From positions 23,318 to 87,317 of the forward strand of contig JAHJCT010000030.1 in NCBI GenBank assembly GCA_018812715.1: a stretch of DNA of 64,000 nt, given 5' to 3'. Numbering within the stretch: position 1 is the first letter of the stretch; every line of letters starts with the position of its first letter. This DNA is from Candidatus Micrarchaeota archaeon (GTDB lineage: Archaea > Micrarchaeota > Micrarchaeia > Anstonellales > Bilamarchaeaceae). The notes below the pieces were generated by a model. The model ran no database searches, was not told the origin of the DNA, and saw only the letters and a list, made by a program, of their open reading frames with translations. Positions 7,190 to 45,331 of the stretch are shown piece by piece. Both the position numbers and the translations under genes were made by a program.

Positions 7190-7194
7190 AAAAA

Positions 7195-8411: not shown

Positions 8412-8418
8412 ACAAATA

Positions 8419-10283: not shown

Positions 10284-10300
10284 CTAGTACAAATTAGCAA

Positions 10301-13047: not shown

Positions 13048-13057
13048 AAATATGACC

Positions 13058-13309: not shown

Positions 13310-14055
13310 GCTTCAAACCTCTTTGCGATCTCAGGAAGTGCATCCTCAGAAAAGAGAGTAAGCCGTCCTGGATGTGTTCCTGGAGCGAGGTGTCTTACCT
13401 TTAGTTCAGACACACTAACTAAATCAACGCCAGGGATATTTGAGGCAGCCTTTGCTGTGCTGCCGTTAGAAACAACTATAAGCATGGATTTTGTTCCGGT
13501 TTTTTTAGCCTTTTCCACAAACTTAATAAGCTTCAGGCTCTTGAGAACATTCATCACATCCTTTGTTTTTTTAAGGCCCTCAAATTGTTTTTCTATTATG
13601 ATTGGGATTGATGGGCCAATCTCAGTGTTGGCACGGCCACAAACAACCTCACGATTAGTGCTAAAGGCCAGTGCACTGGCCAGGGCGATTTTATACTCTC
13701 TTTTATTTATGAGTTCAACAATTTTCTTGGTTACTTTAGGTGGATGTGCGCGTCTTCCTTTTACTGCAAGTGGTATACGCTTAACTTTACCAAGCTGACC
13801 ACCAGGAAGTACTTCGTGTGGAAGGTGAGGAATACCTTTGTTCTTGACTGTACCAAAGTCTTCTTTTCTACCCCTGTATCGAGCACTGGTTTCAAGACCA
13901 GCGAATGGATAGGCTCCTTTAGGCTGATAAGTTTCACTTTCCTCGCTAAGAACAGCTCTTTTTACCAAGTCTCCTCTTTGGGGGGATTCGAAAACATGTG
14001 GAAGATCTATCTGTTTGAGAGCTTTTCCTTCAATTGAGTATACTGTTGCTTTCAT
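13306..14055 (-). CDS. rpl4: 50S ribosomal protein L4 (uL4)
   Basis: 249 aa; archaeal L4/L1e-like (RYRGRKEDFG, GRRAHPPK); operon position. Confidence 0.9.
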   Translation of the reverse strand: MKATVYSIEGKALKQIDLPHVFESPQRGDLVKRAVLSEESETYQPKGAYPFAGLETSARYRGRKEDFGTVKNKGIPHLPHEVLPGGQLGKVKRIPLAVKGRRAHPPKVTKKIVELINKREYKIALASALAFSTNREVVCGRANTEIGPSIPIIIEKQFEGLKKTKDVMNVLKSLKLIKFVEKAKKTGTKSMLIVVSNGSTAKAASNIPGVDLVSVSELKVRHLAPGTHPGRLTLFSEDALPEIAKRFEA

Positions 14056-14059
14056 TCAA

Positions 14060-31482: not shown

Positions 31483-32476
31483 CTATTTTTGATATATATC
31501 TCATTTTTTCTTCTTTGGATAAGAAAGAAGCATTGAATGAATTTTTAGCTAATTTGATTATGTCATCTCTGTTTAATGTTAGGGCATGTGAAATAGCCAA
31601 GTAATTTTCATTTAAGTAACCTCCAAAATAGGCTGGATCATCAGAATTAATTGTCACAAATAACCCTTTTTCCATCATTAGTTTCAATGGATGTTTTTTG
31701 AGATCTTTTACGACTGCCAATTTCAGATTAGATAACGGACAAACTGTAAGGGGCATCTTTCTTTTGACTAATTCATTAACCAAATTTTCATCATCCAAAG
31801 CATGATTGCCGTGATCTATGCGTGAGACATGTAACAGACCAAGAGCTTCCCGGATATAACTTGCCGGCCCTTCCTCACCAGCGTGGGCTACAGTCAAAAA
31901 TCCTTCTTTTCTTGCTTTGTCAAAAACATGCTTAAATTTGGATGGGGGATTGCCAACTTCAGAAGAATCCAAACCAACAGCGATTATCTTATCTTTATAT
32001 GGTAAAGCTTCTTCTAAAGTTTTCATTGCTGAATCAGCATCAAGATGCCTAAGAAAACACATGATTAACTTTGTTGAAATCTTGGAATCTTCAAGCGCAT
32101 TATAAATTCCATTGATAACTGTCTTGAATTTGATACCGCGTTCAGTATGTGTTTGAGGATCAAAAAATATCTCAGTGTGTAAGATGTTTTGTTGTTGTGC
32201 TTTTTCAAGATAGGCAGTTGTTAAATCATAAAAATCCTTTTCCTTGATTAGAACCTTTGCACCCTCATAATAAAGATCTAAAAAATCCTGCAGATTGCTA
32301 AAATTGTAGGCTGCTTTCAGTTCTTCTATTGAGTTATACTTTAGCTCAATTGAATTGCGTTGCGCAATTTTGAACATTAAATCCGGCTCAAAAGTACCTT
32401 CAATATGTAAATGTAGTTCTGATTTTGGTATTCCAGTTATGAATTGATCTAAATCATTTTTCATCAAGAAATTCAC
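31472..32476 (-). CDS. add: Adenosine/adenine deaminase family protein
   Basis: PKSELHLHIEGT metal-binding motif, HAGE and SINSDDPAYFG-like (TINSDDPAYFG) motif. Confidence 0.88.
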   Translation of the reverse strand: MNFLMKNDLDQFITGIPKSELHLHIEGTFEPDLMFKIAQRNSIELKYNSIEELKAAYNFSNLQDFLDLYYEGAKVLIKEKDFYDLTTAYLEKAQQQNILHTEIFFDPQTHTERGIKFKTVINGIYNALEDSKISTKLIMCFLRHLDADSAMKTLEEALPYKDKIIAVGLDSSEVGNPPSKFKHVFDKARKEGFLTVAHAGEEGPASYIREALGLLHVSRIDHGNHALDDENLVNELVKRKMPLTVCPLSNLKLAVVKDLKKHPLKLMMEKGLFVTINSDDPAYFGGYLNENYLAISHALTLNRDDIIKLAKNSFNASFLSKEEKMRYISKIDAW

Positions 32477-33737: not shown

Positions 33738-34301
33738 ATGACTGTTAAAAAAACAATACAAAGAGAAGCAACAAAACCGAGTTTAAAATCATTGGAACCA
33801 AAACTTGATGTTGATTTTCATAAGCAGAGAGTTGAGGCAATTTTAAGAAGGCATGAAAGCCTAGATTCTGCAAGAGAATTGCTGGGTTATGATATTGTAG
33901 CTGCAACATCTGATGGAGTGAAAAGAGTTAGAATTAGTAAAACACGCTCATTCAATGGTATTAGCGGGAGAACAACAAACAGAGAAGGAATAGAGCAGGA
34001 TGCTGGAATGATTTATATTATGAAATTCAGATCGACAAAATTCCTTAATATTACGACTGGAAGAGCTGGAAATCCAACATGTGTATGGATAGAAGAAGCA
34101 ATTGATGTTGATACTGGTGAGAAATTAAAAAGCAACAAATTATTGAGACATTTGGAGCTAGAAGGATCTGATCGACAGCCAATTTTTTCTGACAGAACGG
34201 CTATTGTTGCTGGTGAGACCCCAAGTAAGATTGAACGGCTTAATCCTGCCAAGAATGGTGCTTCAGAAAATACTACTGGCGTATTCCAAGCGCACTTCTG
34301 A
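33738..34301 (+). CDS. Hypothetical protein (187 aa), same strand and immediately upstream of the repeat island
   Basis: ORF only; no recognised motif. Confidence 0.45.
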   Translation: MTVKKTIQREATKPSLKSLEPKLDVDFHKQRVEAILRRHESLDSARELLGYDIVAATSDGVKRVRISKTRSFNGISGRTTNREGIEQDAGMIYIMKFRSTKFLNITTGRAGNPTCVWIEEAIDVDTGEKLKSNKLLRHLELEGSDRQPIFSDRTAIVAGETPSKIERLNPAKNGASENTTGVFQAHF

Positions 34302-34331
34302 CTTATGAGCGACTGTGCCCCTTTGGAAGGG

Positions 34332-34338
34332 TTTTTAA
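34332..34338 (+). promoter_or_regulatory. TATA-like box (TTTTTAA) for repeat-island unit 1
   Basis: Lies 25-31 nt upstream of ATG 34363 (leaderless-type spacing). The 33 nt before the ATG align position-for-position with those before ATG 37238. Confidence 0.5.
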
Positions 34339-34362
34339 GTGTTTATAGGTATATATTTGTGT

Positions 34363-35202
34363 ATGGCTAGAGGTAAACAGGTAGAATTATTGCCACCAGG
34401 AAGAGAGAGCCCTAGAACTTCAAGGAGAGAACCACTAGCTGAAGCGATTCAAAAAAGACCGCATGGATTTTTCACAAAGATGAGTGATAAAGAACTCGTT
34501 GGATATGCAAAGAGAATCATTGAAGAAAAAAAGATAAGTGGAAGGAAGGAATTACAGGAAGTTGATGGAAGTTTGTATAATGTTTTGTTGAAGAGAAATT
34601 TGCTAGATACATTTGGATTTGGAAGAAAAAAAGAGGGCAGGAATTGGAAAGCAATGACTGATGAAGAGATTGTTAGATATGCAAAGACGTTTATGAGGGA
34701 AAGAGAGATAACTGGAAGAGCTGAGGTGTACCGGGCAGATAAAGCATTGTATGAAGTTTTGAGAAGAAGAAAATTGCTGGATGAAGTAGGGTTTGAAGAA
34801 AAACAACGTGATTGGAGTTCAATGAGTGATGAGGAGATTGTTAGATATGTAAGGAAGTTTATTGAAGAAAGTGGAATAACCCGACCGAGAGAACTGCAAG
34901 ATACTAATTCTTGGTTATATGGAGTTTTGTGGAGAAGAGGGTTACTAAGAAGTATTAATTTCGATAGAAAAAGAGTTGATTGGAGTTCAATGAGTGATGA
35001 GGAGATTATTGATCATGCTAGGATGGTTATAAGAGAAAGGGAGATAACTGGGAGAGCACAATTATCAAAAGAGATTAGTGGATTGTACCACGCTTTGAAT
35101 AAAAGAAAATTGTTAGACCAAGTCTTTGCTGACATAGAACAATCAAGAAGAAAAGAAGCAATCCTGCAGGTTGTTGAGGCAATGGAGGAATTTGCATGCT
35201 AG
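34363..35202 (+). CDS. 56-aa-repeat protein A1 (4 repeats)
   Basis: Starts MARGKQVE (tracked GTG at 34339 is probably too early). Has 4 copies of W-x2-M-[ST]-DEE-[IL]-V-x-Y-A..F..E.GI.GR.EL...D.GLY.VL.RR.LLD.VGFE. Tail is IEQSRRKEAILQVVEAMEEFAC. Confidence 0.8.
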   Translation: MARGKQVELLPPGRESPRTSRREPLAEAIQKRPHGFFTKMSDKELVGYAKRIIEEKKISGRKELQEVDGSLYNVLLKRNLLDTFGFGRKKEGRNWKAMTDEEIVRYAKTFMREREITGRAEVYRADKALYEVLRRRKLLDEVGFEEKQRDWSSMSDEEIVRYVRKFIEESGITRPRELQDTNSWLYGVLWRRGLLRSINFDRKRVDWSSMSDEEIIDHARMVIREREITGRAQLSKEISGLYHALNKRKLLDQVFADIEQSRRKEAILQVVEAMEEFAC

Positions 35203-36194
35203 CTTCAAAGCAGAGAATACTTTGGACTATTCCTAAAGATCCAAAGTTTAGCTGGATTCTTCCTTTAGATAGTGCAAACAGAAGATCTTGGAGTGTAATG
35301 AGAGATCATGAACTAGTAAAATTTGCAAGGAAGTTTATGGAAGAGGAAGGGATAAACGGGAGGCATGAATTGGAGAAAGCTGATAAAGGTGTATATGGCA
35401 TTTTGTGGAAAAGGAAACTACTTGGTGAGATTGGATTTGAGAATAACCAACGAGATTGGAATTCTATGAATGATGAAGAGATTGTTGAATATACTGAAGA
35501 GTTTATGAGAGAGGGCATAAGAGAACGGGAAGAATTACGAAAAGCGGATGAAGGACTGTATGCTGCTCTATTTAGAAGGAAATTATTGGACAAGGTGGGA
35601 TTTGAGGAGAAAAGAGAAGAACGTGGTTGGACTTCAATGAGTGATGAAGAAATTGTTGGGTATGCTAAGAAGTTTATGGAAGAAAATGGAATAAGCAGAA
35701 GAGGAAAACTGCAGAAGGCTGATGGGGGGTTGTATAGAATTTTGAGAAAAAGAAGATTGCTTGATGAAATAAGATTTGAAGAGAGAAGACGGGATTGGAA
35801 AGCAATGAGTGATGAGAAACTTATTGGATATGCTAAGGGATTTATTGAAAAAGAAGAGATTGGCGGGACAAGAGAATTGATGAATGCTGATAAAGGATTA
35901 TACAGTGTTTTGAGGAGAAGGAAATTGTTGGATAAGGTGGGATTTGAAACAAAGAAAAGAGAGATGCGTAACTGGAAGGCAATGACTGATGATGAGATTA
36001 TTAAATATGCTAGAAAGACCATGGAAGAAGAAGGAATAAGTGGACGGGAAGAATTGAGGAAGGTTGATAGTGGATTGTGTAGTGTTTTGAGGAGAAGAAA
36101 ACTTCTAGATCGAGTTTTTTCTTCTATAGATCAATCAAGAAGAAGAGAAGCAATCTTGCAGGTTGTTGAAGCAATGGAGGAATTTGCATGTTAG
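35196..36194 (+). CDS. 56-aa-repeat protein A2 (5 repeats)
   Basis: ATG embedded in GCATGCTAG of the upstream stop; GGAGG 7 nt upstream. Leader MLASKQRILWTIPKDPKFSW, 5 repeats, conserved ...EEFAC tail. Confidence 0.85.
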   Translation: MLASKQRILWTIPKDPKFSWILPLDSANRRSWSVMRDHELVKFARKFMEEEGINGRHELEKADKGVYGILWKRKLLGEIGFENNQRDWNSMNDEEIVEYTEEFMREGIREREELRKADEGLYAALFRRKLLDKVGFEEKREERGWTSMSDEEIVGYAKKFMEENGISRRGKLQKADGGLYRILRKRRLLDEIRFEERRRDWKAMSDEKLIGYAKGFIEKEEIGGTRELMNADKGLYSVLRRRKLLDKVGFETKKREMRNWKAMTDDEIIKYARKTMEEEGISGREELRKVDSGLCSVLRRRKLLDRVFSSIDQSRRREAILQVVEAMEEFAC

Positions 36195-37192
36195 CTTCAA
36201 GACAGCAATTTATTTGGACTATTCCTAAAGATCCAAAGTTTAGTTGGATTGTTCCCTTAACTTCTAGCAATAATAGAGCCTGGAGGGTGATGAGTGATGA
36301 TGAGTTAGTGAAATATGCTAGAAAGTTTATAGAAGAGGAAGGGATAAAAAGAGTTGGAGAATTAAGAAGAGTCGATAAAGGATTGTATCTGATTTTGAGA
36401 AGGAGAGGGTTGATAAATGAAATCAAGTTTGAAGAGAAAATGCAGAAGAAACGTAATTGGAATTCTATGAGTGATGAAGAATTGGTTGAATATACTAAGA
36501 AGTTTGTGGAAGAGAGAAGGATAAGTGGGAGATATGAATTGGAGAAGACAGATAAAGGATTGTATCAGGTTTTAATGAAAAGAGGATTGTTGGATGAAAT
36601 AGAACTTGAGAATAAAAACCATGGAAAACGTAATTGGAAAGCAATGACTAATGATGAAGTTGTTGAACATACTAAGAAGTTTGTGGAAGAGAAGAAGATG
36701 AGTGGGAGATTTGAATTGGAGAAGGCAGATACTGGATTGTATGATGTGTTGAGAAAAAGAGGACTATTGGATGAAGTTGGATTTGAAGAAAAATATCGTG
36801 ATTGGGCTTCTATGAGTGATGAAGAGATTGTTGGATATGTAAGGAAGTTGATGGAAGAAAAAGGGATAAATGGAAGGAGAGAATTGAATAAAGCTGATTC
36901 TGGATTGTATTCTATTTTGAAGAGGAGAAAGTTATTGAATGATATAGGGTTTGAAGAGAAACAACGTAATTGGGCTTCTATGAGCAATGATGAGATTGTT
37001 GAATATGCTAAAGGATTTATGAGGGAGGAGAGAATAAAAAAGCGAAGAAAATTACGAAATGCGAACAATGGATTGTATAGTGCTTTGTGGAGAAGAAAAC
37101 TTCTAGATCGAGTTTTTTCTTCTATAGATCAATCAAGAAGAAGAGAAGCAATCTTGCAGGTTGTTGAGGCAATGGAGGAATTCTCAAATTAA
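36188..37192 (+). CDS. 56-aa-repeat protein A3 (5 repeats)
   Basis: Same junction architecture (GCATGTTAG); leader MLASRQQFIW; 5 repeats; tail variant ...EEFSN ends unit 1. Confidence 0.85.
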   Translation: MLASRQQFIWTIPKDPKFSWIVPLTSSNNRAWRVMSDDELVKYARKFIEEEGIKRVGELRRVDKGLYLILRRRGLINEIKFEEKMQKKRNWNSMSDEELVEYTKKFVEERRISGRYELEKTDKGLYQVLMKRGLLDEIELENKNHGKRNWKAMTNDEVVEHTKKFVEEKKMSGRFELEKADTGLYDVLRKRGLLDEVGFEEKYRDWASMSDEEIVGYVRKLMEEKGINGRRELNKADSGLYSILKRRKLLNDIGFEEKQRNWASMSNDEIVEYAKGFMREERIKKRRKLRNANNGLYSALWRRKLLDRVFSSIDQSRRREAILQVVEAMEEFSN

Positions 37193-37206
37193 CACTAAAA
37201 GTAACC

Positions 37207-37213
37207 TTTATAA
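37207..37213 (+). promoter_or_regulatory. TATA-like box (TTTATAA) for repeat-island unit 2
   Basis: Same distance from ATG 37238 as the unit-1 box; shared taagtgtttat...tgtATGGCTAGAGGTAAACAGGTAGAA. Confidence 0.5.
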
Positions 37214-37237
37214 GTGTTTATTTATATATAAATATGT

Positions 37238-40200
37238 ATGGCTAGAGGTAAACAGGTAGAAACACCCCTATCAAGAAACAAATTCGAAGCATTCCTCAGA
37301 GAGAACAAGCCGTTAGGATATCAAGAATATATAAAAGTAAAGAAAATTGCATTGGAGAACGGCGAAGATCCCATAAGAGAATTCCGAAAGGTCATAACCG
37401 AGACTGAAGGCCTTGGAAAAACAGTTGCCATGAATTTTTGGCTTATGGCAATAGGTAAAAGACTGGCCATACCTGAAAATGATGATGTTGTATTTCTTCG
37501 TGAGATACTGGCAAGTAATAAAATTGATCTTGATATGCTTATTGATCTTCTTGGAGGGGATCAGAGAAGAATTGCAGACGTTATATGTGCCCTGCATCTT
37601 GACAAGCTTGAAAACGCAGGGTATTCCTCAGTTTACATGATAGTAGACAAAATTATCAAAGGAAAAGCAGGAAGAAAAGGAACTCCTCCGCCCCCAGGAA
37701 AGACATTTTTTGATGATATTCCTGATGAATTGCTTGTAGGTAATATTGATGCGCTTGAGATACTGAAGGCCTATGGTATTGAGGAATACCAGAGGATGTA
37801 TCAAAATAATTATGAAGCAGCAGAACGACAACTTGAAGAAAAAATAAGAAACTGTAAAGAGCCAGGCAAAAAGATAATTCTTCAGAGTATTTATGATTAT
37901 TACAGTGAACTCAAAAAACTCAATATTCCAGGCATAGTTGATGAGACAATAGACAAAGAAACTGGTGGATTAGTTGGATTTCCGGCAGTCCATCAAAAGA
38001 TTGGGGCAAGATTTATTGCAGAAAAAAAACGGACCCTCATTGCTGATGAAATGGGGCTCGGTAAAACAGCACTGGCAGTTATTGCAAAAAATCTTATTGA
38101 AAGTGAAGAAGGAAGGAAAACAGCTGTTGCAGTTGTTCCTAATAATGTTCTTGCACAGTGGGAAGAACAAATTAATCTGTGGAATACGGAAAGAAGATCA
38201 GTAGTTGTAATAACAAGCAAGAACAAGACAGAAGCGTTAGAACAAATCGAGAGGGAGCGACCAGATTTTGTACTTGTTTCATATGATATGATTTTTAGAA
38301 AGCACAACGGAGGGACAGTGGCAAATAAATTAGAAACAATATGCGATTACCTCATCCTTGATGAAGTCCATAACACAAAAGAGGCAAAAAGTCTGAGAAG
38401 TAAAGGCGTTGTTGGACTTTCAAGAAGGGCCGAATATGTTACTTTGCTCAGTGGCACACCAGTACCAAATAGAGTAGAAGATCTAGGAGTCATTGCAAGT
38501 ATACTATGGAACCATGAATTTACTGCAAAAGATTTTAACAAAAAATTCAAACACAATCCAAGAGTAGTTAGGGAAAGAATACTTCCGAGAATGTTGAGAA
38601 GAAGGAAAAGAGATACTTTTGGGGAAGGGCAATGCACAAGACATGTCGTTGCTGTTCCAATGACGAAGCAACAAGAACAAGAACACAAAAGACTTGAATT
38701 GAACCCTGATGGAGTAGGATCTTTGGAACTCATAGCACAGCTTCGGAGATGTGCTCTTGATCCTCAATTAGTAGGAATTAGTGAAGAATCACCAAAATAT
38801 CAAAGACTTGTAGAAATGCTAGTAGACCATCATGATGATAGTCCTGCTGTTGTTTTCAGCAGTGAGCTTAAGGAAGGCGTTTTGGATAAACTTGTTGGAG
38901 AAATAGAAGGATATGGTCTTCGGGTTGCAAGAATTGATGGTGATCCAGAAAGAAGTGGAAAACACAGAGATAGAATTCTAACGGAATTTAATGAAGAAAA
39001 ATATGATGTTGTTGTAGCAACACTGGCAACCCTTGGGGAAGGAATAGACAAACTAACTGTTTCTCACCGGGGCTATTTCATAGATATTCCATTTACAGAA
39101 GCCAAACTTGCACAAGGAATAACAAGATTAGATAGAAAAGGGCAGAAGAATCCTGTTGATATCTACTTGATGGTATCGGAAAATAGTATTGACGAATTAC
39201 TATTAAGACTGATAGATCAAAAGAGAATATTGGGGGAATTTCTTATTGATGGAATGGAACTTACAGACTTTGAAAAAAGAATAATAGAAGAAGGGGAAAG
39301 GCTTGTTGAATGCGGAACAGATCCATTGAGAAAGCTTTACCGTTTCTTTGGTGCAACTTACAACAGAACTACAGAATCAGTAATAAGATTACTTGGGGAT
39401 CCGGTAATTGGAAGATTTGTTGCAGAAGAATACTGGAACAACTTTGAAGGATCATTCTATGGAAATATGAATAATCTTGTTGCCAGTGTAATCCGAGGAT
39501 TAGAGGGGGAGTTCGGTAAAATTCTAGATTTGGCATCCGGACCATGTTGTCTTGCCAGGGCTTTAGAACGACCAGTCGTATCATTAGATGCTAATGCAGT
39601 AGCGCTGGAAGTTGGAAAAAGGATGCTTGGTGAAAAAGCAGGGGAAACAGTTGTTGGAAGCTTTACAAAGTTGCCATTTAAGGAGGAAACATTTGATTGT
39701 ATAGCCTTTTCACTTGGTTTATTGCATTCTGCTGTGGATGAACGGGAAGGAATAATCAGGCAGATCAACAGGGCAATGAGAAAAGATGGGGTAGTTATAA
39801 TTACAATGCCAAGCGGGGAAGGGCGTTATGATAAATTAGCAAAAATCTTACCAATGCTTGGATTCAGGGTATTGCCAGATATGACAGGAACTGCTCAAGG
39901 AATTGACAGAACGGATTTTGAATGTACAATTATTTCTGCTGTAAAAGTAAGTGACCCTATTGTTGATAGCGTGCCGCTTGAACTTTTTGATTTCCAAAAA
40001 GATAAAATGGAAAGTGAGGACTGGGAGGCCAGTGTATCAAAAAAAGTGAAAAGAGAAGAATGTCATCAGTTTGAGATAGATGGCGTTTCAGTTGAAGATG
40101 CAAGGGTGACTATAACTCCTCCGAAAAATGAATCACAAACAGCAAGAAAAGAATTTCGTAAGCTTAAACCAAGTGAGCGTTTGGGCTTCCTTATTGATAG

Positions 40201-40399
40201 ATACAAATCGCTCACACATGTACCTCAAAAAGATTTGGATGAACTTGGAATAGAAGTTGTTAGTGTTGGAAGAGGGAATAGACAGTATTGGACTGTAGTA
40301 TTGAAAGAAGAAGCTGGAATGAACGCAGATCATAAGGCATTTGTAAATGGTAGGCCGTCTAGTGAGATAGAGAAAAGACAAAGGAGGGCGGTTAGATGA
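37238..40399 (+). CDS. SNF2-family helicase fused to a class-I SAM-dependent methyltransferase (1053 aa)
   Basis: Helicase motifs: I LIADEMGLGKT, II LILDEVHN, III LSGTPVPNRVEDL, VI QGITRLDRKGQ. Then MTase motif I ILDLASGPCCL, FDCIAFSLGLLH and MRKDGVVIITMP. N-terminal 250 aa and C-terminal 190 aa are unassigned. Confidence 0.85.
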   Translation: MARGKQVETPLSRNKFEAFLRENKPLGYQEYIKVKKIALENGEDPIREFRKVITETEGLGKTVAMNFWLMAIGKRLAIPENDDVVFLREILASNKIDLDMLIDLLGGDQRRIADVICALHLDKLENAGYSSVYMIVDKIIKGKAGRKGTPPPPGKTFFDDIPDELLVGNIDALEILKAYGIEEYQRMYQNNYEAAERQLEEKIRNCKEPGKKIILQSIYDYYSELKKLNIPGIVDETIDKETGGLVGFPAVHQKIGARFIAEKKRTLIADEMGLGKTALAVIAKNLIESEEGRKTAVAVVPNNVLAQWEEQINLWNTERRSVVVITSKNKTEALEQIERERPDFVLVSYDMIFRKHNGGTVANKLETICDYLILDEVHNTKEAKSLRSKGVVGLSRRAEYVTLLSGTPVPNRVEDLGVIASILWNHEFTAKDFNKKFKHNPRVVRERILPRMLRRRKRDTFGEGQCTRHVVAVPMTKQQEQEHKRLELNPDGVGSLELIAQLRRCALDPQLVGISEESPKYQRLVEMLVDHHDDSPAVVFSSELKEGVLDKLVGEIEGYGLRVARIDGDPERSGKHRDRILTEFNEEKYDVVVATLATLGEGIDKLTVSHRGYFIDIPFTEAKLAQGITRLDRKGQKNPVDIYLMVSENSIDELLLRLIDQKRILGEFLIDGMELTDFEKRIIEEGERLVECGTDPLRKLYRFFGATYNRTTESVIRLLGDPVIGRFVAEEYWNNFEGSFYGNMNNLVASVIRGLEGEFGKILDLASGPCCLARALERPVVSLDANAVALEVGKRMLGEKAGETVVGSFTKLPFKEETFDCIAFSLGLLHSAVDEREGIIRQINRAMRKDGVVIITMPSGEGRYDKLAKILPMLGFRVLPDMTGTAQGIDRTDFECTIISAVKVSDPIVDSVPLELFDFQKDKMESEDWEASVSKKVKREECHQFEIDGVSVEDARVTITPPKNESQTARKEFRKLKPSERLGFLIDRYKSLTHVPQKDLDELGIEVVSVGRGNRQYWTVVLKEEAGMNADHKAFVNGRPSSEIEKRQRRAVR

Positions 40400-41226
40400 G
40401 GCAGCTTCAGAAACAGAAAATTGGAAGAGATGTAAGAGCTGCAGCGAAAGGGCCATTAATTGAAGGGATAGTTCAGTTGGATAGTAGAGGAAGAAGAAAA
40501 TGGAGTCCAATGAGTGATGAAGAGATTGTTGAATATGCAAGGAAGTTTATGGAAGAGAAAGGAATAAGTGGAAGAACAGAATTGAGTATGGTTGATAGAG
40601 GATTGCATAATGTTTTGAAAAGAAGAGGATTGTTGGATGAAGTAGGATTTGAAGATAAAAGAAAAGATTGGAAAGTAATGAGTGATGAAGAGATTGTTAG
40701 ATATGCTAGAGAGTTTATGAGAGAGGAAAGGATAAGAAGGAAGGGAGAATTGTATGAAGTTGATCCTGGATTGTATTATGTTTTGAAGAAAAGAAGATTG
40801 TTGGATGAAGTGGGGTTTGAAGATAAATATCGTGATTGGAAAGAAGTAAGTGATGGTGGACTAGTTGAATATGCAAGGAAGTTTATGGAAGAGAAGGGGA
40901 TAAGTGGGAGGAAGGAATTGAAGAGAATAGATTCTGGATTGTATGAGATTTTAAGAACGAGAAAGTTATTGGATGCTATAGAATTTGAGGAGAGACAACG
41001 TGATTGGAGCTCAATGAGTGATGAAGAAATTGTTAGATATGCTAAGGAATTTGTGGAGGAGAAGGGAATAAGTAGGAGGAAGGAATTGGAGAAGGCTGAT
41101 GGAGGATTGTATGATGTTTTGAGGAGAAGGAGATTATTAGATCAAGCTTTTTCTTCTATAGATCAATCAAGAAGAAAAGAAGCAATCTTGCAGGTTGTTG
41201 AGGCAATGGAGGAATTTGCATGCTAG
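40396..41226 (+). CDS. 56-aa-repeat protein B1 (4 repeats)
   Basis: ATGA overlap with the SNF2 stop; AGGAGGG upstream. Leader MRQLQKQKIGRD...LDSRGRRKW; 4 repeats; EEFAC tail. Confidence 0.85.
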   Translation: MRQLQKQKIGRDVRAAAKGPLIEGIVQLDSRGRRKWSPMSDEEIVEYARKFMEEKGISGRTELSMVDRGLHNVLKRRGLLDEVGFEDKRKDWKVMSDEEIVRYAREFMREERIRRKGELYEVDPGLYYVLKKRRLLDEVGFEDKYRDWKEVSDGGLVEYARKFMEEKGISGRKELKRIDSGLYEILRTRKLLDAIEFEERQRDWSSMSDEEIVRYAKEFVEEKGISRRKELEKADGGLYDVLRRRRLLDQAFSSIDQSRRKEAILQVVEAMEEFAC

Positions 41227-42056
41227 CTTCTAGGCAGAGAATACTTTGGGAGATTCCTAGAAATCCAAAGTTCAGTTGGATTGTTCCCTTAACTTCTAGC
41301 AATAATAGAGCCTGGAGGGTGATGAGTGATGATGAGTTAGTGAAATATGCTAGAAAGTTTATAGAAGAAGAAGGGATAAGTGGGCTGTGGAAATTGAGTA
41401 AAGCTGATTCTGGATTATATTATGTTTTGTGGAAAAGAAAATTACTTGATAGGATAGGACTTGAAGATAAGAAACGTGATTGGAATTCAATGAATGATGA
41501 AGAACTTGTTGAGTATGCTAAGAGGTTTATGGAAGAAAATGAGATAAGTGAGAGAAGGGAATTGGAGAAGACTGACTCTGGGTTATATGGTGTTTTGAAG
41601 AGAAGAAGATTGCTGGATAGAGTAGGATTTGAAGATAAGATGCAGAAGAAACGTAATTGGAAATCAATGAGCGATGAAGAACTTGTTGAGTATGCTAAGA
41701 GGTTTATGGAAGAGAAGGAAATAAATGGGAGAAAGGACTTGTGGAAAGCTGATTCTGGATTGTATACTGTTTTGTGGAAAAGAAAATTGCTGGATAGAGT
41801 AGGATTTGAAGAAAAGAGACAGAGACAACGTGATTGGAATTCTATGAATGATGATGAGATTGTTGAGTATGCTAAGAAGTTTATAGAAGAGAATGGGATA
41901 AGTGAACGGGAGGAATTGAAGAAAGCTGATAGAGGGCTGCATCAAGTTTTGAAGATAAGAAAGCTCCTAGATACAGTTTTTGCTTCTATAGATCAGTCAA
42001 GAAGAAAAGAAGGAATCCTGCAGGTTGTTGAAGCAATGGAGGAATTTGCATGCTAG
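41220..42056 (+). CDS. 56-aa-repeat protein B2 (4 repeats)
   Basis: GCATGCTAG junction; leader MLASRQRILWEIPRNPKFSW; 4 repeats; EEFAC tail. Confidence 0.85.
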   Translation: MLASRQRILWEIPRNPKFSWIVPLTSSNNRAWRVMSDDELVKYARKFIEEEGISGLWKLSKADSGLYYVLWKRKLLDRIGLEDKKRDWNSMNDEELVEYAKRFMEENEISERRELEKTDSGLYGVLKRRRLLDRVGFEDKMQKKRNWKSMSDEELVEYAKRFMEEKEINGRKDLWKADSGLYTVLWKRKLLDRVGFEEKRQRQRDWNSMNDDEIVEYAKKFIEENGISEREELKKADRGLHQVLKIRKLLDTVFASIDQSRRKEGILQVVEAMEEFAC

Positions 42057-42877
42057 CTTCAAAGCAGAGAATACTTTGGACTATTCCTAAAGATCCAAAG
42101 TTCAGTTGGATTGTTCCTTTAGATAGTAGAAATAGAAGATCTTGGAGTGTAATGAGAGATCATGAGTTACTAAGATTTGCAAGAAAGTTTATGGAAGAAG
42201 AAGGAATACGTGGAAGGAAGGAATTGGAAAAGAGTGATAGTGTGTTGTATCAGACTTTGAAGAAAAGAAGATTGTTAGATGAGATAATATTTGAGAGAAA
42301 ACAAAGGAATTGGGAATCTATGAGTGATGAAGAATTGGTGAGATATGTTAGAAAGTTTATGGAAGAAGAAGGAATAACTGGAAAGGGAGAATTGAAGAAG
42401 GCCGATAATGGAGTGTATATAGTTTTGAGGAAAAGAGGATTGTTAGATAAATTATGGTTTGAAGAGAAACGCCGTGATTGGAATTTTGTGAGTGATGAAG
42501 AATTGGTGAGATATGCTAAGAAGTTTATGGAAGAGAGGGGGATAAGTGGAAGAAGTGAATTGAAGAAGACTGATTCTGGGTTGTATAATGTTTTGAGAAA
42601 AAGAAAATTGTCGGATGAAGTAGGATTTGAAGAAAAATGGCAGAAACGCCGTAATTGGAAATCTATAAGTGATAAGAGACTACTTAGATATACTAAGGAA
42701 TTTATAGAAGAGAGGGGGATAATCGGACGGACTGAATTGAAGAAGAGCGATGGAGGGTTGTATGAAGTTTTAAGAATAAGAAAATTATTAGATGCTGTTT
42801 TTGCTCCTATAGATCAATCAAGAAGAAAAGAAGCAATTTTGCAGGTTGTTGAGGCAATGGAGGAATTTGCATGCTAG
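42050..42877 (+). CDS. 56-aa-repeat protein B3 (4 repeats)
   Basis: GCATGCTAG junction; leader MLASKQRILWTIPKDPKFSW; 4 repeats; EEFAC tail. Confidence 0.85.
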   Translation: MLASKQRILWTIPKDPKFSWIVPLDSRNRRSWSVMRDHELLRFARKFMEEEGIRGRKELEKSDSVLYQTLKKRRLLDEIIFERKQRNWESMSDEELVRYVRKFMEEEGITGKGELKKADNGVYIVLRKRGLLDKLWFEEKRRDWNFVSDEELVRYAKKFMEERGISGRSELKKTDSGLYNVLRKRKLSDEVGFEEKWQKRRNWKSISDKRLLRYTKEFIEERGIIGRTELKKSDGGLYEVLRIRKLLDAVFAPIDQSRRKEAILQVVEAMEEFAC

Positions 42878-43530
42878 CTTCAAAGCAGAGAATACTTTGG
42901 ACTATTCCTAGAGATCCTAAGTTTAGTTGGATTGTTCCTTTAGATAGTAGAAACAGAAGATCTTGGGGTGTGATGAGAGATCATGAACTAGTTAGATTTG
43001 CAAGGAAGTTTTTGGAAGAGGAAGGGATAGGTAGTAGAGGAAAATTGGTGAAAGTGGATCCTAATTTGTATCAGGTTTTGAAGAAAAAGAAATTGTTAGA
43101 TAAAGTAGAATTTGAAGATAAGAAACGTGATTGGAAATCAATGAGTGATGAAGAGATTGTTGAGTATGTTAAGAGGTTTATGGAAGAGAAGGAAATAAAT
43201 GGGAGAAAGGACTTGTGGAAAGCTGATTCTGGATCGTATACTGTTTTGTGGAAAAGAAAATTATTGGATAGGATTGAATTTGAAAGAAAAAGAAGGAAAA
43301 CTCGGAATTGGAAGACAGTAAGTGATAATGAACTTGTTGAATATGTTAAGGAATTTATTGAAAAGGAGGGGATAAGTAAACGCGAAGAATTGAAGAAGCT
43401 TGATTATGGATTGTATAGTGCTTTGTGGAGAAGAAAATTGTTAGATCAAGCTTTTGCCCCTATAGAACAATCAGGAAGAAAAGAAGCCATTTTGCAGGTT
43501 GTTGAAGCAATGGAGGAATTTGCATGCTAG
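42871..43530 (+). CDS. 56-aa-repeat protein B4 (3 repeats)
   Basis: GCATGCTAG junction; same leader; 3 repeats; EEFAC tail. Confidence 0.85.
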   Translation: MLASKQRILWTIPRDPKFSWIVPLDSRNRRSWGVMRDHELVRFARKFLEEEGIGSRGKLVKVDPNLYQVLKKKKLLDKVEFEDKKRDWKSMSDEEIVEYVKRFMEEKEINGRKDLWKADSGSYTVLWKRKLLDRIEFERKRRKTRNWKTVSDNELVEYVKEFIEKEGISKREELKKLDYGLYSALWRRKLLDQAFAPIEQSGRKEAILQVVEAMEEFAC

Positions 43531-44516
43531 CTTCAAAGCAGAGAATACTTTGGACTATTCCTAAAGATCCAAAGTTCAGTTGGATTCTTCCTTTAGATAG
43601 TAGAAACAGAAGATCTTGGAGTGTGATGAGAGATCAGGAACTAGTTGAACTTGCAAGGAAATTCATGGAAGAAGAGAGGATATGTGGAAGGAAGCAACTG
43701 TCAAAGGCTGATATAGGATTGTACAGTATTTTGATCAGAAGAAAATTGTTGAATAAGGTTGAGTTTGAGGGAAAACAGAGAGATTGGAAAACAATGAGTG
43801 ATGCTGAACTGGTAGAATTTACAAGAAAATTTATGGAAGGAAGAAAGATATATGAGCGAAAAAAACTACAGAAACTTGATGGAGGATTGTATGAAGTTTT
43901 GAGAAAGAGAGGATTGTTGGATCAATTAGAATTTGAGGAGAAATACCGTGATTGGAAAGAAGTAAGTGATGATGGACTAGTTAAACATGCAAGGAAGTTT
44001 ATGGAAGAGAAGGGGATAAGTGAGAGAACTGAATTGAGAAAGGTAGATCTCGGATTGTACCAGGTTTTGAGAAAAAGAAAATTACTGGACAAAATAGGAT
44101 TTGAAGATAAAAGACAGAAACATCGCAATTGGAATTCAATGAGTGATGAAGAACTTGTTGCTTATGGTAAAGAGTTTATGAGGAAGAGAGGAATAACTGG
44201 ACGGCATGAATTAGAGAAGGCTGATTCTGGATTGTATCGCGTTTTGATGATTAGGGAAATTATGAATCAATTAGAATTTGAGGGGAAGCACCGTGATTGG
44301 GCTTCTATGAGTGATGAGGAGATTGTTGAGTATGCTAAGAAGTTTATGGAAGAAAGGGAGATAAGCAGAAGAGGAAAACTGCAGAAGGCTGATAGGGGGC
44401 TATATGAGATTTTGAGAAAGAAAAGATTGCTTGAAGATGTTTTTGTTGACCTGGACCAATCAAGAAGAAGAGAAGCAATCTTGCAGGTTGTTGAAGCGAT
44501 GGAGGAATTTGCATGA
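43524..44516 (+). CDS. 56-aa-repeat protein B5 (5 repeats)
   Basis: GCATGCTAG junction; same leader; 5 repeats; tail ...EEFA ending in an ATGA overlap with the next gene. Confidence 0.85.
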   Translation: MLASKQRILWTIPKDPKFSWILPLDSRNRRSWSVMRDQELVELARKFMEEERICGRKQLSKADIGLYSILIRRKLLNKVEFEGKQRDWKTMSDAELVEFTRKFMEGRKIYERKKLQKLDGGLYEVLRKRGLLDQLEFEEKYRDWKEVSDDGLVKHARKFMEEKGISERTELRKVDLGLYQVLRKRKLLDKIGFEDKRQKHRNWNSMSDEELVAYGKEFMRKRGITGRHELEKADSGLYRVLMIREIMNQLEFEGKHRDWASMSDEEIVEYAKKFMEEREISRRGKLQKADRGLYEILRKKRLLEDVFVDLDQSRRREAILQVVEAMEEFA

Positions 44517-45331
44517 GACAACTGCATGCTACTAAAATTGGAAATCCTAGAACTTCAAGAAAAGAACCTCTAGCTGAGAGAATACTTAAAAGAAGGAATT
44601 TTACTGATGAAGAAATAGGAACAATTATACAAAGAAGAACTGAACTTATTCAGCAAATGACAGACTGGAAAATAGCAACTATAATTGCACGGGAATTGAA
44701 TAGAAGCCCAAGATCAGTAGAAACTAAGATTAAAGAATTAATTAAAGACGGCACATTAGAGGAAAATCCAAACAAAAAGAAGAAACATCCTTTCAATGCT
44801 GAAGAAAATAGACAGATAGCTGAAGAACTTACAGCTTCTGGTTTATGTGATGGTGCAATAGCAAAAGTTATTGCAGAAAAAACAGGAAGAAGAGTAAGTT
44901 CTGTAAAAACAAGCATATGTGCAGACAGAAACAAAAAACGTCTTGGAAAAAATCCAAACAATCAAAGAACAATGAGATCAGAAGAAAGCAAGTGGATAAT
45001 GCGCAGAAGAAGAGAATTGATGGATCTAGGATTGAATGACACTTCAATATCAAGAGTGCTTGAATCAAAAACAAGAAATGCCAGTGCAATAAGAAGAACA
45101 ATCTGGGAGCTTAAAAAAGTAGGAATGATAATGGAAAATTATAACGATATGAAGGAAAGTAAAGAAATTGAAAGAATGATATTGAGAAGAGAAGAACTCA
45201 TGGCAGAAGGAAAAAATGATGATGAAATTGCAAAGCAAATAGCAGAGGAAATGAAAAGACAGATTAGAACTATATCATTTATGATCTGGAGAATAGTAAG
45301 AATTGGAAAATGCAGAATTAATAAAAATTAG
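44513..45331 (+). CDS. Protein with four tandem Myb/SANT-like (HTH) repeats
   Basis: 4 modules of about 60 aa, e.g. FTDEEIGTIIQRRTELIQQMTDWKIATIIARELNRSPRSVETKIKEL. Pattern [FW]-T-x-EE...W/I-x-x-IA..L.R....V resembles Myb/SANT. N-terminal PRTSRKEPLAERILKR is shared with A1. Confidence 0.6.
   Translation: MRQLHATKIGNPRTSRKEPLAERILKRRNFTDEEIGTIIQRRTELIQQMTDWKIATIIARELNRSPRSVETKIKELIKDGTLEENPNKKKKHPFNAEENRQIAEELTASGLCDGAIAKVIAEKTGRRVSSVKTSICADRNKKRLGKNPNNQRTMRSEESKWIMRRRRELMDLGLNDTSISRVLESKTRNASAIRRTIWELKKVGMIMENYNDMKESKEIERMILRREELMAEGKNDDEIAKQIAEEMKRQIRTISFMIWRIVRIGKCRINKN

What the first reader, a model, noticed from the sequence alone, without database searches (positions are those of the whole stretch)
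37238..40399. SNF2 helicase fused to a small-molecule/RNA-type class-I methyltransferase, with two unassigned domains
All SNF2 motifs are intact (GLGKT at about 38050, DEVH at 38360-38371, QGITRLDRKGQ).

The C-terminal MTase (about 39450-39830) has ILDLASGPCCL, FDCIAFSLGLLH and RKDGVVIITMP, which resembles the Methyltransf_11/25 type. I see no (D/N)PP(Y/F) motif, so it does not look like an N6-adenine or N4-cytosine DNA MTase.

The first ~250 aa and last ~190 aa have no motif I recognise. Coupling a translocase to a non-DNA-type MTase is unusual and leaves the methylation substrate open.
Basis: partly seen in the sequence, partly recalled or inferred. Interest (0 to 1): 0.7.

Follow-up and report, generated by a model that had tools for sequence, protein, structure and literature searches.

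The report
SNF2 motor fused to RNA-type methyltransferase
A real, conserved gene of tiny symbiotic archaea (with relatives in tiny symbiotic bacteria) joins a DNA-tracking motor to a methyltransferase of the kind that normally marks ribosomal RNA, and it always travels with arrays of repeat proteins that look like its targeting partners; what it methylates is still unknown.

Summary
ORF 37238-40399 (+, 1053 aa) is uninterrupted. It has a complete SNF2 ATPase (aa 251-690), a class-I SAM methyltransferase (aa 762-905) and no DPPY motif. It is not an assembly artefact: about 20 Micrarchaeota orthologues and at least 218 cluster representatives, mostly CPR bacteria, share the fusion.

New findings:
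1. The closest solved relative of the methyltransferase, by sequence and by fold, is RRP8/nucleomethylin, an rRNA m1A enzyme.
2. The C-terminal region contains a Topoisomerase-V-type helix-hairpin-helix DNA-binding motif.
3. The N-terminal 250 aa fold confidently into an all-helical domain with no match in PDB or Pfam.
4. The gene heads an operon, and a second operon lies upstream. Together they encode nine basic tandem-repeat proteins. Such repeat genes flank the fusion in all 13 archaeal loci examined. In CPR, arrays of other repeats are fused to its N-terminus.
5. Partner proteins of unrelated types (repeat proteins, a 190-aa family, an MPG/AAG-like protein) share lineage-specific C-terminal tails, which suggests docking to a common hub.

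Best reading: a DNA-bound, adaptor-guided motor-methyltransferase complex. The substrate is unresolved (nucleic-acid base or partner proteins). It fails the membership tests for DISARM, Zorya, Dpd and RapA.

The parts
33738..34301 (+). 187-aa protein resembling methylpurine DNA glycosylase (MPG/AAG). A candidate accessory partner, tail-less in this genome.
   Evidence: Pfam Pur_DNA_glyco E 7.9e-4, 19.3 bits, below the cutoff of 27. Homologous to L008_150, which passes the cutoff. Family profile against human AAG gives E 0.01; the catalytic Glu125 aligns to Arg or Gly. Homologues lie next to an SNF2-MTase in L094 and L008. In L094 and in P0379 they carry the partners' C-terminal tail.
34339..34386 (+). 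Promoter-like AT-rich element plus the first 8 codons (MARGKQVE). This is copy 1 of a duplicated 5' end.
   Evidence: GTGTTTAT..TATATA..ATGGCTAGAGGTAAACAGGTAGAA is present at 34339-34386 and again at 37214-37261. The likely true start of the first repeat gene is the ATG at 34363, not the GTG at 34339.
34363..35202 (+). Repeat protein 1: 4 units of the ~56-aa type-A repeat, basic head, conserved C-terminal tail.
   Evidence: Repeat HMM E 1.1e-96, 4 units; tail ..KEAILQVVEAMEEFAC. pI 9.5.
35196..36194 (+). Repeat protein 2 (5 type-A units, tail).
   Evidence: Overlaps the previous gene by 7 nt.
36188..37192 (+). Repeat protein 3 (5 type-A units, tail).
37214..37237 (+). Promoter-like element directly upstream of the SNF2-MTase start. 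This is copy 2 of the duplicated 5' end.
   Evidence: A TATA-like box lies ~30 nt before the ATG, which suggests a leaderless or short-leader mRNA (inference).
37238..37987 (+). SNF2-MTase aa 1-250: conserved all-helical N-terminal domain of unknown fold.
   Evidence: AlphaFold2 pLDDT 86.8, pTM 0.78. No PDB fold match; best E 0.8. No PDB or Pfam hit with a sequence profile. Conserved across 16 orthologues.
37988..39307 (+). SNF2-MTase aa 251-690: SNF2 ATPase core, both RecA-like lobes.
   Evidence: Pfam SNF2-rel_dom and Helicase_C. Best PDB relatives are SRCAP, Rad5, ISWI, CHD1 and SSO1653, E 3.5e-20 to 1e-14.
39308..39952 (+). SNF2-MTase aa 691-905: helical extension plus RRP8-like class-I SAM methyltransferase.
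   Evidence: Methyltransf_11 E 1.2e-10. The profile's best PDB hit is 2zfu (nucleomethylin/RRP8), E 2.4e-11. 2zfu is also the Foldseek top hit, TMt 0.76. The model has pLDDT ~90 over this part. SAM-binding positions D764 and D784 are invariant or nearly so.
39953..40162 (+). SNF2-MTase aa 906-975: conserved 'LFDF...FEIDG' segment followed by a variable linker.
   Evidence: Conserved motifs are. Partly low pLDDT. No assignment.
40163..40396 (+). SNF2-MTase aa 976-1053: Topo-V-type helix-hairpin-helix motif (aa ~980-1008, 40175-40261), then a beta-hairpin and helix, then a basic tail (aa 1038-1053).
   Evidence: The C-domain profile against PDB hits Topoisomerase V with E 4.9e-19, matching five of its HhH repeats (first seen). 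Conserved between archaeal and CPR members. Tail pI 10.25. No Pfam hit.
40396..41226 (+). Repeat protein 4 (4 type-A units, tail). Its start overlaps the SNF2-MTase stop codon (ATGA).
41220..42056 (+). Repeat protein 5 (4 units, tail).
42050..42877 (+). Repeat protein 6 (4 units, tail).
42871..43530 (+). Repeat protein 7 (3 units, tail).
43524..44516 (+). Repeat protein 8 (5 units, tail).
44513..45331 (+). Type-B repeat protein: 4 units of a ~62-aa repeat that looks like an HTH of the Myb/sigma-region-4 kind. It has no tail and is the last gene of the operon.
   Evidence: repB HMM E 8.6e-23, 4 units. Weak HTH hits only. The same gene type ends the array in L001 and L090 and makes up the whole array in L005/L100.

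Best explanation
SHOWN.
- The 1053-aa protein has this domain order: novel helical N-domain, SNF2 ATPase, RRP8-like SAM methyltransferase, Topo-V-type HhH motif, basic tail.
- It is a vertically inherited chromosomal gene of a Micrarchaeota (DPANN) archaeon.
- It belongs to an uncharacterised family found in Micrarchaeota and, in a longer form, in CPR/Patescibacteria.
- It is always encoded together with basic tandem-repeat proteins. In archaea these are separate, translationally coupled genes. In CPR, N-terminal repeat arrays are fused to the protein.
- Partner proteins of unrelated types share a lineage-specific C-terminal amphipathic tail.

INFERRED MECHANISM.
- The protein is the hub of a DNA-bound complex.
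- The HTH-like repeat proteins bind DNA and dock on the hub through their tails. The likeliest docking site is the orphan N-domain, which sits where the fused repeats join in CPR.
- The SNF2 motor uses ATP to translocate along or distort duplex DNA. The HhH motif and basic tail hold the enzyme on DNA.
- The methyltransferase then methylates a target exposed by the motor.
- My preferred target is a nucleic-acid base, with RRP8-type N-methylation of a purine in locally unwound DNA or in nascent RNA. The associated MPG/AAG-like protein, which lacks the catalytic Glu, would act as a binder of the modified purine.
For: Architecture and conservation:
- Domain hits.
- The fusion is conserved in 16 aligned orthologues over the full length.
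- It is present in 218 cluster representatives at E<=1e-30. Their MTase plus C-domain is at the extreme C-terminus of proteins of 1100-2600 aa. Named examples are Levybacteria and Patescibacteria.

Chromosomal, syntenic setting:
- The order is FtsZ, rhomboid, PP2C, Trm1, TruD, [cluster], HTH-CBS, MetRS.
- A ribosomal-protein operon lies at 4-15 kb.

Partnership with repeat proteins:
- Repeat genes abut the fusion in 13 of 13 archaeal loci.
- CPR members carry N-terminal arrays with a period of ~66-78 aa. This is a Rosetta-stone fusion.

Shared tails across unrelated partner types:
- Repeat types A and B.
- The 190-aa family in L003 and L097.
- The MPG-like protein in L094 and P0379.

DNA orientation:
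- The SNF2 core is closest to dsDNA translocases.
- The HhH motif matches Topo V repeats, which bind DNA (PMC9489208).
- The partners are basic, pI 8.7-10.2, with weak HTH hits.

The methyltransferase is probably active: D764, S767, D784 and the FSLGLLHS motif IV are conserved and align with RRP8.
Against: - There is no experimental data of any kind.
- The closest relatives of the methyltransferase act on RNA (RRP8 on m1A645, PMC6085284; Bud23). No enzyme of this type is known to methylate DNA.
- The methyltransferase domain and the whole protein are acidic (pI 5.4 and 6.1). This suits basic protein substrates better than nucleic acid.
- The MPG-like gene lies next to the fusion in only 3 of 14 fusion loci examined. 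L095 keeps that gene at the same syntenic site without the cluster.
- The docking of tails on the N-domain is untested.
- The repeat types show no detectable homology to one another or to known HTH families.
- Some large contigs with several repeat genes did not show a listed fusion gene, so strict co-occurrence is unproven.
Confidence: 0.4

Rival explanations
1. The methyl acceptors are the partner proteins themselves. In this reading the system works like chromatin. The basic repeat proteins coat or mark DNA. The SNF2 motor moves or evicts them. The methyltransferase modifies their Lys/Arg-rich heads or repeats, by analogy with histone methylation coupled to remodelling.
For: - The partners are 21-24% Lys+Arg, have pI 9-10 and are multi-copy.
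- They carry a conserved basic head ('..PR..RKEPLAEGI..KK') as well as the tail.
- The methyltransferase domain is acidic (pI 5.4).
- Methyltransf_11-type folds include protein methyltransferases; NTMT1 is among the fold hits.
- The SNF2 core is closest to eukaryotic remodellers such as ISWI, CHD1 and SRCAP. ISWI and CHD1 themselves use Myb-like SANT/SLIDE modules (established knowledge).
- Human RRP8/nucleomethylin acts on rDNA chromatin (established knowledge).
Against: - No sequence signature of a protein Lys/Arg methyltransferase was found.
- The nearest enzymes with known chemistry are RNA base methyltransferases.
- This reading does not explain the tail-bearing MPG-like partner.
Confidence: 0.25
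2. The enzyme modifies RNA. It would be an rRNA or tRNA methyltransferase, or one acting on nascent RNA, recruited to transcribed DNA by the SNF2/HhH part. This would be a ribosome-biogenesis or RNA-polymerase-associated factor in the manner of RapA or CSB.
For: - The best sequence and fold match is RRP8, the 25S rRNA m1A645 methyltransferase (PMC6085284).
- Methyltransf_8 passes the Pfam cutoff in the CPR members P0024 and P0025.
- Neighbouring genes include Trm1, TruD, MetRS and S8e.
- In L094 the gene follows rpoB-rpoA'-rpoA''-L7Ae-NusA on the same strand.
Against: - No SNF2-family ATPase is known to act on RNA, and RapA membership fails (51.9 bits against a cutoff of 576).
- The synteny with RNA genes is shared ancestry among close relatives and is not conserved in L005, L091 or CPR.
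- Repeat-protein partners, the HhH motif and the MPG-like partner are not expected for an rRNA methyltransferase.
Confidence: 0.17
3. It is an anti-virus or anti-plasmid defence system of the motor-plus-methyltransferase kind, comparable to DISARM, BREX, Zorya or Dpd. The variable repeat proteins would act as sensors.
For: - PADLOC hits to ZorD (7.5e-25), DrmD (2.2e-21), DpdE (4e-21) and mad2 (3.3e-10).
- Array copy number varies from 1 to 15 between genomes.
- The cluster is an insertion/deletion relative to L095 and sits at other chromosomal sites in L094, L005 and L091.
- A ParE toxin gene lies nearby in L091.
Against: - All hits cover only the generic SNF2 or methyltransferase cores and are far below the curated cutoffs: DrmD 49.8 against 610, ZorD 26.3 against 1500, DpdE 41.1 against 500.
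- There is no nuclease, no DNA-type methyltransferase and no DPPY motif.
- No other defence genes are in the neighbourhoods.
- Synteny among housekeeping genes is stable across orthologues of 51-59% identity.
- The system is retained in highly reduced genomes.
Confidence: 0.12

Closest known systems
RRP8 / nucleomethylin (Pfam Methyltransf_8; PDB 2zfu), the 25S/28S rRNA m1A methyltransferase
   Same: Class-I Rossmann methyltransferase fold. It is the best PDB match by profile (E 2.4e-11) and by structure (TMt 0.76). Motif I/II acidic residues and the motif IV 'VF(S/C)L.L' align.
   Different: - RRP8 is a stand-alone eukaryotic nucleolar enzyme with no motor.
- Here motif I is 'ASGPCC' rather than 'GCGDC'.
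- Methyltransf_8 is not detected by hmmscan in the window protein itself. It is detected only in some orthologues and CPR members.
- The substrate here is unknown.
Eukaryotic and archaeal SNF2 remodellers (ISWI, CHD1, SRCAP/SWR1, Rad5, Sulfolobus SSO1653)
   Same: Complete two-lobe SNF2 ATPase with all motifs. These are its nearest solved relatives. ISWI and CHD1 also rely on helix-turn-helix (SANT/SLIDE) DNA-binding modules (established knowledge).
   Different: - None of them carries a methyltransferase.
- The N-domain here is of unknown fold.
- DNA-binding repeats are supplied in trans by up to ~15 paralogous genes, or fused N-terminally in CPR.
DISARM (DrmD SNF2 helicase plus DrmMI/MII DNA methyltransferase) and other motor-plus-methyltransferase defence systems (Zorya ZorD, Dpd DpdE, BREX)
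   Same: They combine an SNF2-type ATPase with methylation. PADLOC and NCBIfam models of DrmD, ZorD and DpdE hit the ATPase core.
   Different: - Scores are 10-50 times below the family cutoffs.
- The methyltransferase is not an N6A, N4C or C5 DNA methyltransferase.
- No DrmA/B/C, Zor, Dpd or PglZ partners and no nuclease are present.
- The genomic setting is core chromosome.
Topoisomerase V (HhH)2 repeats of Methanopyrus kandleri
   Same: The C-domain consensus 'L..KYGS....P.EEL.ELG' matches five Topo V repeats (E 4.9e-19). In Topo V these repeats bind DNA, and three carry AP-lyase sites (PMC4838376, PMC9489208).
   Different: - There is only one HhH motif here, followed by a beta-hairpin.
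- There is no topoisomerase domain.
- AP-lyase lysines could not be assessed.
- No Pfam HhH family is hit.
RapA (bacterial RNA-polymerase-associated SNF2 ATPase)
   Same: A prokaryotic SNF2 ATPase with an N-terminal accessory region. It gives a weak NCBIfam hit (E 3.7e-14).
   Different: The score is 51.9 against a cutoff of 576. RapA has no methyltransferase, HhH motif or repeat partners.

Membership tests
SNF2 family ATPase (Pfam PF00176 + PF00271) | SNF2-related N-lobe and helicase C-lobe above the Pfam gathering scores. | tested here: met
   91.8 bits against 24.9, and 38.1 against 23.5.
SNF2 family ATPase | Intact motifs I (GxGKT), II (DExH) and VI (QxxGRxxRxGQ-like). | tested here: met
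   DEMGLGKTA at 38045-38071, DEVH at 38360-38371, QGITRLDRKGQ at 39113-39145. Invariant in 16 orthologues.
Class-I SAM methyltransferase, Methyltransf_11/25 type | Pfam hit above cutoff with the standard (non-permuted) motif order. | tested here: met
   PF08241 42.4 bits against 21.2; PF13649 37.2 against 27. The motifs run in the order I, II, III, IV.
RRP8 / Methyltransf_8 (PF05148) | Pfam PF05148 above the gathering score of 27. | tested here: inconclusive
   Not listed for the window protein at E<=0.1. It passes in the CPR homologues P0024 (31.9) and P0025 (27.5). It is precomputed for orthologues P0002, P0012, P0015 and P0018. 2zfu is the top PDB hit by sequence and by fold.
RRP8 / Methyltransf_8 | N1-adenine methylation of large-subunit rRNA. 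| not testable with these tools
   Needs biochemistry or modification mapping.
N6-adenine / N4-cytosine DNA methyltransferase | (D/N/S)PP(Y/F/W) catalytic motif, or a Pfam DNA-methylase family. | tested here: not met
   No such motif in 1053 aa. No N6_Mtase, N6_N4_Mtase, MethyltransfD12 or DNA_methylase hit.
DISARM (DrmD) | NCBIfam DrmD equivalog cutoff, and DrmA/DrmB/DrmC neighbours. | tested here: not met
   49.8 bits against 610, and 43.1 against 950. Neighbours are repeat proteins and housekeeping genes.
Zorya (ZorD) | ZorD equivalog cutoff, Mrr-like nuclease, ZorABC neighbours. | tested here: not met
   26.3 bits against 1500. The PADLOC hit covers the ATPase core only. No nuclease domain.
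Dpd (DpdE) | DpdE equivalog cutoff and a dpdA-K cluster. | tested here: not met
   41.1 bits against 500. No dpd genes nearby.
RapA | RapA equivalog cutoff. | tested here: not met
   51.9 bits against 576.
(HhH)2 DNA-binding domain, Topo V type | Sequence match to the HhH repeat consensus; two HhH motifs forming one domain. | tested here: inconclusive
   One motif matches strongly (E 4.9e-19 summed over five Topo V repeats). A second HhH is not evident in the model. No Pfam HhH hit.
MPG/AAG 3-methyladenine DNA glycosylase (neighbour gene 33738-34301) | Pfam PF02245 above cutoff, the full ~180-residue domain, and the catalytic Glu (human E125). | tested here: not met
   19.3 bits against 27, covering only profile positions 6-99. 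E125 aligns to Arg in Micrarchaeota and to Gly in L008. The alignment itself is weak (E 0.01).

The most novel reading that the evidence does not exclude
CPR bacteria and DPANN archaea would share a previously unrecognised motor-driven 'writer-reader' system for a non-canonical methylpurine mark on DNA. An RRP8-like methyltransferase would be carried along DNA by an SNF2 motor and aimed by an expandable library of tail-docked repeat-protein adaptors. A catalytically dead AAG-fold protein would read the mark. This would amount to a chromatin or epigenetic layer, or a way of handling imported DNA, specific to ultra-small symbionts.
Probability: 0.15. Interest if true: 0.9.

Novelty: new variant of a known kind. 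Interest (0 to 1): 0.66.

Why it matters
SNF2 motors are the engines of eukaryotic chromatin remodelling and of several prokaryotic defence systems. None described so far carries an RNA-type methyltransferase.

This family appears confined to the two great radiations of ultra-small symbionts, CPR bacteria and DPANN archaea. These organisms discard most non-essential genes, yet they keep a protein of 1000-2600 aa plus, in archaea, up to ~15 partner genes.

Working out its substrate could reveal one of three things:
- a new nucleic-acid modification;
- a prokaryotic analogue of remodelling coupled to protein marks;
- a new principle for targeting a motor through interchangeable repeat-protein adaptors with docking tails.

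The system also offers an orphan, confidently folded domain and three or more unclassified repeat families for structural work.

Tried and rejected
1. Frameshift or assembly artefact. Rejected: the ORF is continuous and the fusion is conserved in orthologues and in at least 218 cluster representatives.

2. DNA methyltransferase with permuted motifs. Rejected.

3. Fold assignment of the N-domain. The model is confident, but Foldseek against PDB gives E >= 0.8. Single-sequence and profile searches of PDB and Pfam found nothing.

4. Pfam assignment of the C-domain. Nothing was found. Only the PDB profile search revealed the Topo V HhH match.

5. Common ancestry of the archaeal 56-aa repeat with the CPR repeats (P0025) or the L008 repeats. 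hhalign probability is below 5%, so this is not supported. The PDB profile search with the repeat unit gave only a designed repeat protein at E 1.3e-3.

6. The idea that the archaeal tail corresponds to a linker helix between repeats and N-domain in the fused CPR proteins. A tail HMM gives scores <= 0.4 bits at scattered positions. Rejected.

7. Taxonomic survey of GTDB species genomes. It was swamped by the generic SNF2 Walker-A pattern, and only one true family member (L010) was recovered. A2 was too diverse for the pattern search. The metagenome scan added 4 new loci.

8. Search for the 190-aa partner family in the window. Absent.

9. Literature searches (SNF2 + methyltransferase + DPANN, Patescibacteria or Rrp8). 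No description of this family was found.

10. Rfam and tRNA scans of the window. Nothing was found.

Full report
**1. The observation**

The window has one uninterrupted ORF at 37238-40399 on the + strand, 1053 aa long. Pfam finds four domains above their cutoffs:
- SNF2-rel_dom, aa 252-485, E 5.5e-26;
- Helicase_C, aa 520-635, E 2e-9;
- Methyltransf_11, aa 763-855, E 1.2e-10;
- Methyltransf_25, E 4.8e-9.

- DEMGLGKTA at 38045-38071;
- DEVH at 38360-38371;
- QGITRLDRKGQ at 39113-39145;
- ILDLASGPCCL at 39521-39553;
- FDCIAFSLGLLH at 39692-39727;
- RKDGVVIITMP at 39779-39811.

No (D/N/S)PP(Y/F/W) motif exists in the protein, and no DNA-methylase family is hit.

**2. The fusion is real and belongs to a family**

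A word-indexed search found about 20 full-length relatives at 45-63% identity with the same architecture. Those that carry a name are 'Candidatus Micrarchaeota archaeon', a DPANN phylum now listed as Microcaldota. More distant fusions, at 26-30% identity, occur in Patescibacteria.

Sixteen orthologues align over their whole length. Conserved blocks lie in every region, including the first 250 and last 150 residues.

An exhaustive profile search with the methyltransferase plus C-domain found 218 representatives of 50%-identity clusters at E<=1e-30. Most are 1100-2600 aa long with the match at the extreme C-terminus. Named examples are Candidatus Levybacteria and 'Patescibacteria group'. The fusion is therefore ancient and not an assembly artefact.

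**3. Domain anatomy**

- **SNF2 core (aa 251-690).** It is closest to dsDNA-translocating remodellers: SRCAP, Rad5, ISWI, CHD1 and SSO1653, with E from 3.5e-20 to 1e-14.
- **Methyltransferase and its helical N-extension (aa ~691-905).** This part was modelled with pLDDT ~90. Its best solved relative is 2zfu, the methyltransferase domain of nucleomethylin/RRP8. This holds both by profile (E 2.4e-11) and by fold (Foldseek rank 1, TM-score 0.76 on the target). Generic class-I enzymes and Bud23 follow. RRP8 makes m1A645 in yeast 25S rRNA (PMC6085284). The acidic residues that end beta-1 (D764) and beta-2 (D784) are invariant or nearly so, as is motif IV 'VFSLGLLHS', and they align with RRP8. SAM binding is therefore probably retained.
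- **C-domain.** Its profile matches five helix-hairpin-helix repeats of Methanopyrus Topoisomerase V. The family consensus is 'L..KYGS....P.EEL.ELG', against Topo V 'LKRKYGSASAVRRLPVEELRELGFS' (E 4.9e-19). These repeats bind DNA, and three of them carry AP-lyase sites (PMC4838376, PMC9489208). In the model the motif is followed by a beta-hairpin, a helix and a basic tail. Pfam sees nothing here.
- **N-domain (aa 1-250).** It folds confidently (pLDDT 86.8, pTM 0.78) into 12 long helices and one short one, followed by a short hairpin. It has no structural or sequence match; the best Foldseek E is 0.8.

**4.

The gene lies inside an array of paralogous + strand genes at 34363-37192 and 40396-44516. 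Eight proteins consist of 3-5 copies of a ~56-aa unit, 'W.SMSDEEIVEYAKKF.EE.GI.GR.EL.KAD.GLY.VL.RRKLLD.VGFE'.

- Each has a basic head.
- Each ends with the same tail, '..SRRKEAILQVVEAMEEF'.
- Neighbouring genes overlap by 4 or 7 nt.

A ninth gene (44513-45331) has four units of a different ~62-aa repeat resembling an HTH of the Myb or sigma-region-4 kind. All nine proteins are basic, with pI 8.7-10.2 and 21-24% Lys+Arg.

A promoter-like element plus the first eight codons (MARGKQVE) is duplicated at 34339-34386 and 37214-37261. This defines two operons, and the SNF2-MTase is the first gene of the second.

The purine-rich coding strand is 64.6% purine. This explains the extreme GC skew of 0.26-0.60 over 34-44 kb.

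**5. The association is conserved**

In every one of 13 Micrarchaeota-type loci carrying the fusion, at least one repeat-protein gene abuts it, usually overlapping its stop codon. The loci are the window, L001, L003, L005, L009, L010, L090, L091, L093, L094, L096, L097 and L098. Copy number ranges from 1 to 15.

In Patescibacteria there are no separate repeat genes. Instead the protein itself carries N-terminal arrays of ~66-78-aa units with weak HTH hits. This is a Rosetta-stone fusion.

The repeat types are not detectably homologous to one another. The constant feature is a tandem helical-repeat array, not one repeat family.

**6. Tails**

The C-terminal tail differs between lineages:
- window: 'ILQVVEAMEEF';
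- L001: 'VDGVLDALESF';
- L097: 'VQEVLDELEEF';
- L094: 'LLSDIRECFDAYT'.

Within a genome, however, it is shared by all partners, including proteins of unrelated type:
- type-A and type-B repeat proteins;
- a conserved 190-aa protein in L003 and L097;
- an MPG/AAG-like protein in L094 and P0379.

A modular tail that changes in step within each lineage points to docking on a common partner. The only invariant non-repeat protein in the cluster is the SNF2-MTase. This step is inference, and concerted evolution within arrays would also keep the tails alike. The junctions are ~90% identical at the DNA level.

**7. The MPG-like neighbour**

Gene 33738-34301 encodes a 187-aa protein with a sub-threshold Pur_DNA_glyco hit. 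Its small family of 8 proteins lies next to an SNF2-MTase in three different settings: the window, L094 beside the RNA-polymerase operon, and the marine L008.

L095 keeps this gene at the same syntenic site without the cluster. The cluster is therefore an insertion/deletion between related genomes, and the adjacency in the window could be historical.

In the weak alignment to human AAG (E 0.01), the catalytic Glu125 is replaced by Arg or Gly. If the protein does belong to the system, it is more likely a base binder than a glycosylase.

**8. Genomic setting**

The window is ordinary chromosome:
- a ribosomal-protein operon at 4-15 kb;
- FtsZ, rhomboid, PP2C, Trm1, adenosine deaminase and TruD upstream;
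- HTH-CBS, GATase and MetRS downstream.

The same gene order is found in L001, L009 and L093. No nuclease or known defence gene is nearby.

**9. Interpretation**

The best-supported model is a DNA-bound complex with these roles:
- repeat proteins act as DNA-binding adaptors, docking through their tails or fused directly;
- the SNF2 ATPase acts as the motor;
- the HhH motif and basic tail act as a DNA clamp;
- the RRP8-like domain acts as the effector.

The methyl acceptor is unresolved.
- I favour a nucleic-acid base. The reasons are the RRP8-type chemistry, the DNA-handling modules and the AAG-like partner.
- Partner-protein methylation is a serious rival, given the acidic enzyme and the very basic partners with conserved heads.
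- A purely RNA-directed role is less likely.
- A defence role is also less likely, because all DISARM, Zorya, Dpd and RapA cutoffs are missed by 10-50 fold.

**10. Novelty**

No paper in the searchable library describes the family. It is a new variant of the motor-plus-methyltransferase theme. Its novel features are an RNA-type methyltransferase, an orphan N-domain, a Topo-V-like HhH motif and adaptor arrays with docking tails. It appears restricted to CPR and DPANN.

**Limitations**
- Taxonomy rests on named best hits.
- Co-occurrence was tested only on contigs that could be fetched.
- Nothing here is experimental.

Noticed in passing
window 34000-44000: GC skew is extreme, 0.26-0.60 per 2-kb window. 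This is caused by the purine-rich (64.6% A+G) coding strand of the repeat genes, not by a replication feature. Long antisense ORFs here, such as 35306-36022 (-) at 238 aa and rich in Ser/Leu/Phe, are by-products of this composition.
   Followed up: partly
window 34339-34386 and 37214-37261: A promoter-like element plus the first eight codons (MARGKQVE) is duplicated in front of the first repeat gene and of the SNF2-MTase. The same 'MFI(G/S)IYLCM' in-frame upstream translation appears before the orthologue in L005. This suggests a conserved 5' element and leaderless transcripts.
   Followed up: partly
window 35128-35312, 36120-36304, 41152-41336, 41982-42166, 42803-42987, 43456-43640: The tail-plus-head junctions between repeat genes (~170 nt, overlap 'ATGCTAG' or 'ATGTTAG') are ~90% identical at the DNA level, while the repeats between them diverge. 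This is a sign of unequal crossing-over or gene conversion. Internal genes use a head ('MLASKQRILWTIPKDPKFSW') different from that of first-in-operon genes ('MRQL...EPLAE..').
   Followed up: partly
L095 10001-10567 and flanks: A related genome has the same TruD, MPG-like, HTH-CBS synteny but lacks the whole SNF2-MTase/repeat cluster at that site. Tail-bearing repeat genes occur elsewhere on the contig (1409-2440, 5768-6103).
   Followed up: partly
L094 1-13173: A divergent 1316-aa SNF2-MTase follows rpoB-rpoA'-rpoA''-L7Ae-NusA on the same strand. After it come an MPG-like protein and two repeat proteins. All three share one tail, '..LLSDIRECFDAYT'.
   Followed up: partly
L001 9262-9834(-), L003 6183-6854(-), L005 7404-7964(+), L009 8439-9011(-), L091 8131-8697(-), L093 7900-8475(-), L097 1945-2637(-): A conserved ~190-aa protein family with no Pfam match lies just upstream of the cluster in 7 loci and carries the partner tail in L003 and L097. 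It is absent from the window.
   Followed up: partly
window 37409-37423: A second 'GLGKT' string lies in the N-terminal domain (aa 58-62). It is not a Walker A motif and is not conserved in the orthologues.
   Followed up: yes
window 31472-32476 (-): An adenosine deaminase gene sits between Trm1 and TruD here. It is absent at that position in L001, L009, L093 and L095.
   Followed up: no
window 4167-15010 (-): A typical archaeal ribosomal-protein operon (L3, L4, L2 ... S5) on the minus strand accounts for the strongly negative AT skew there. No tRNA or Rfam family was found anywhere in the 64 kb.
   Followed up: partly
L008 2478-3905: In the marine ~780-aa form of the family, the upstream partner is a 475-aa protein with HTH_23/HTH_28 hits and three ~64-aa repeats ('YWQDWSNVEGELREII..G.FP'). 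These resemble homing-endonuclease-associated repeats by eye only; no test was made.
   Followed up: no
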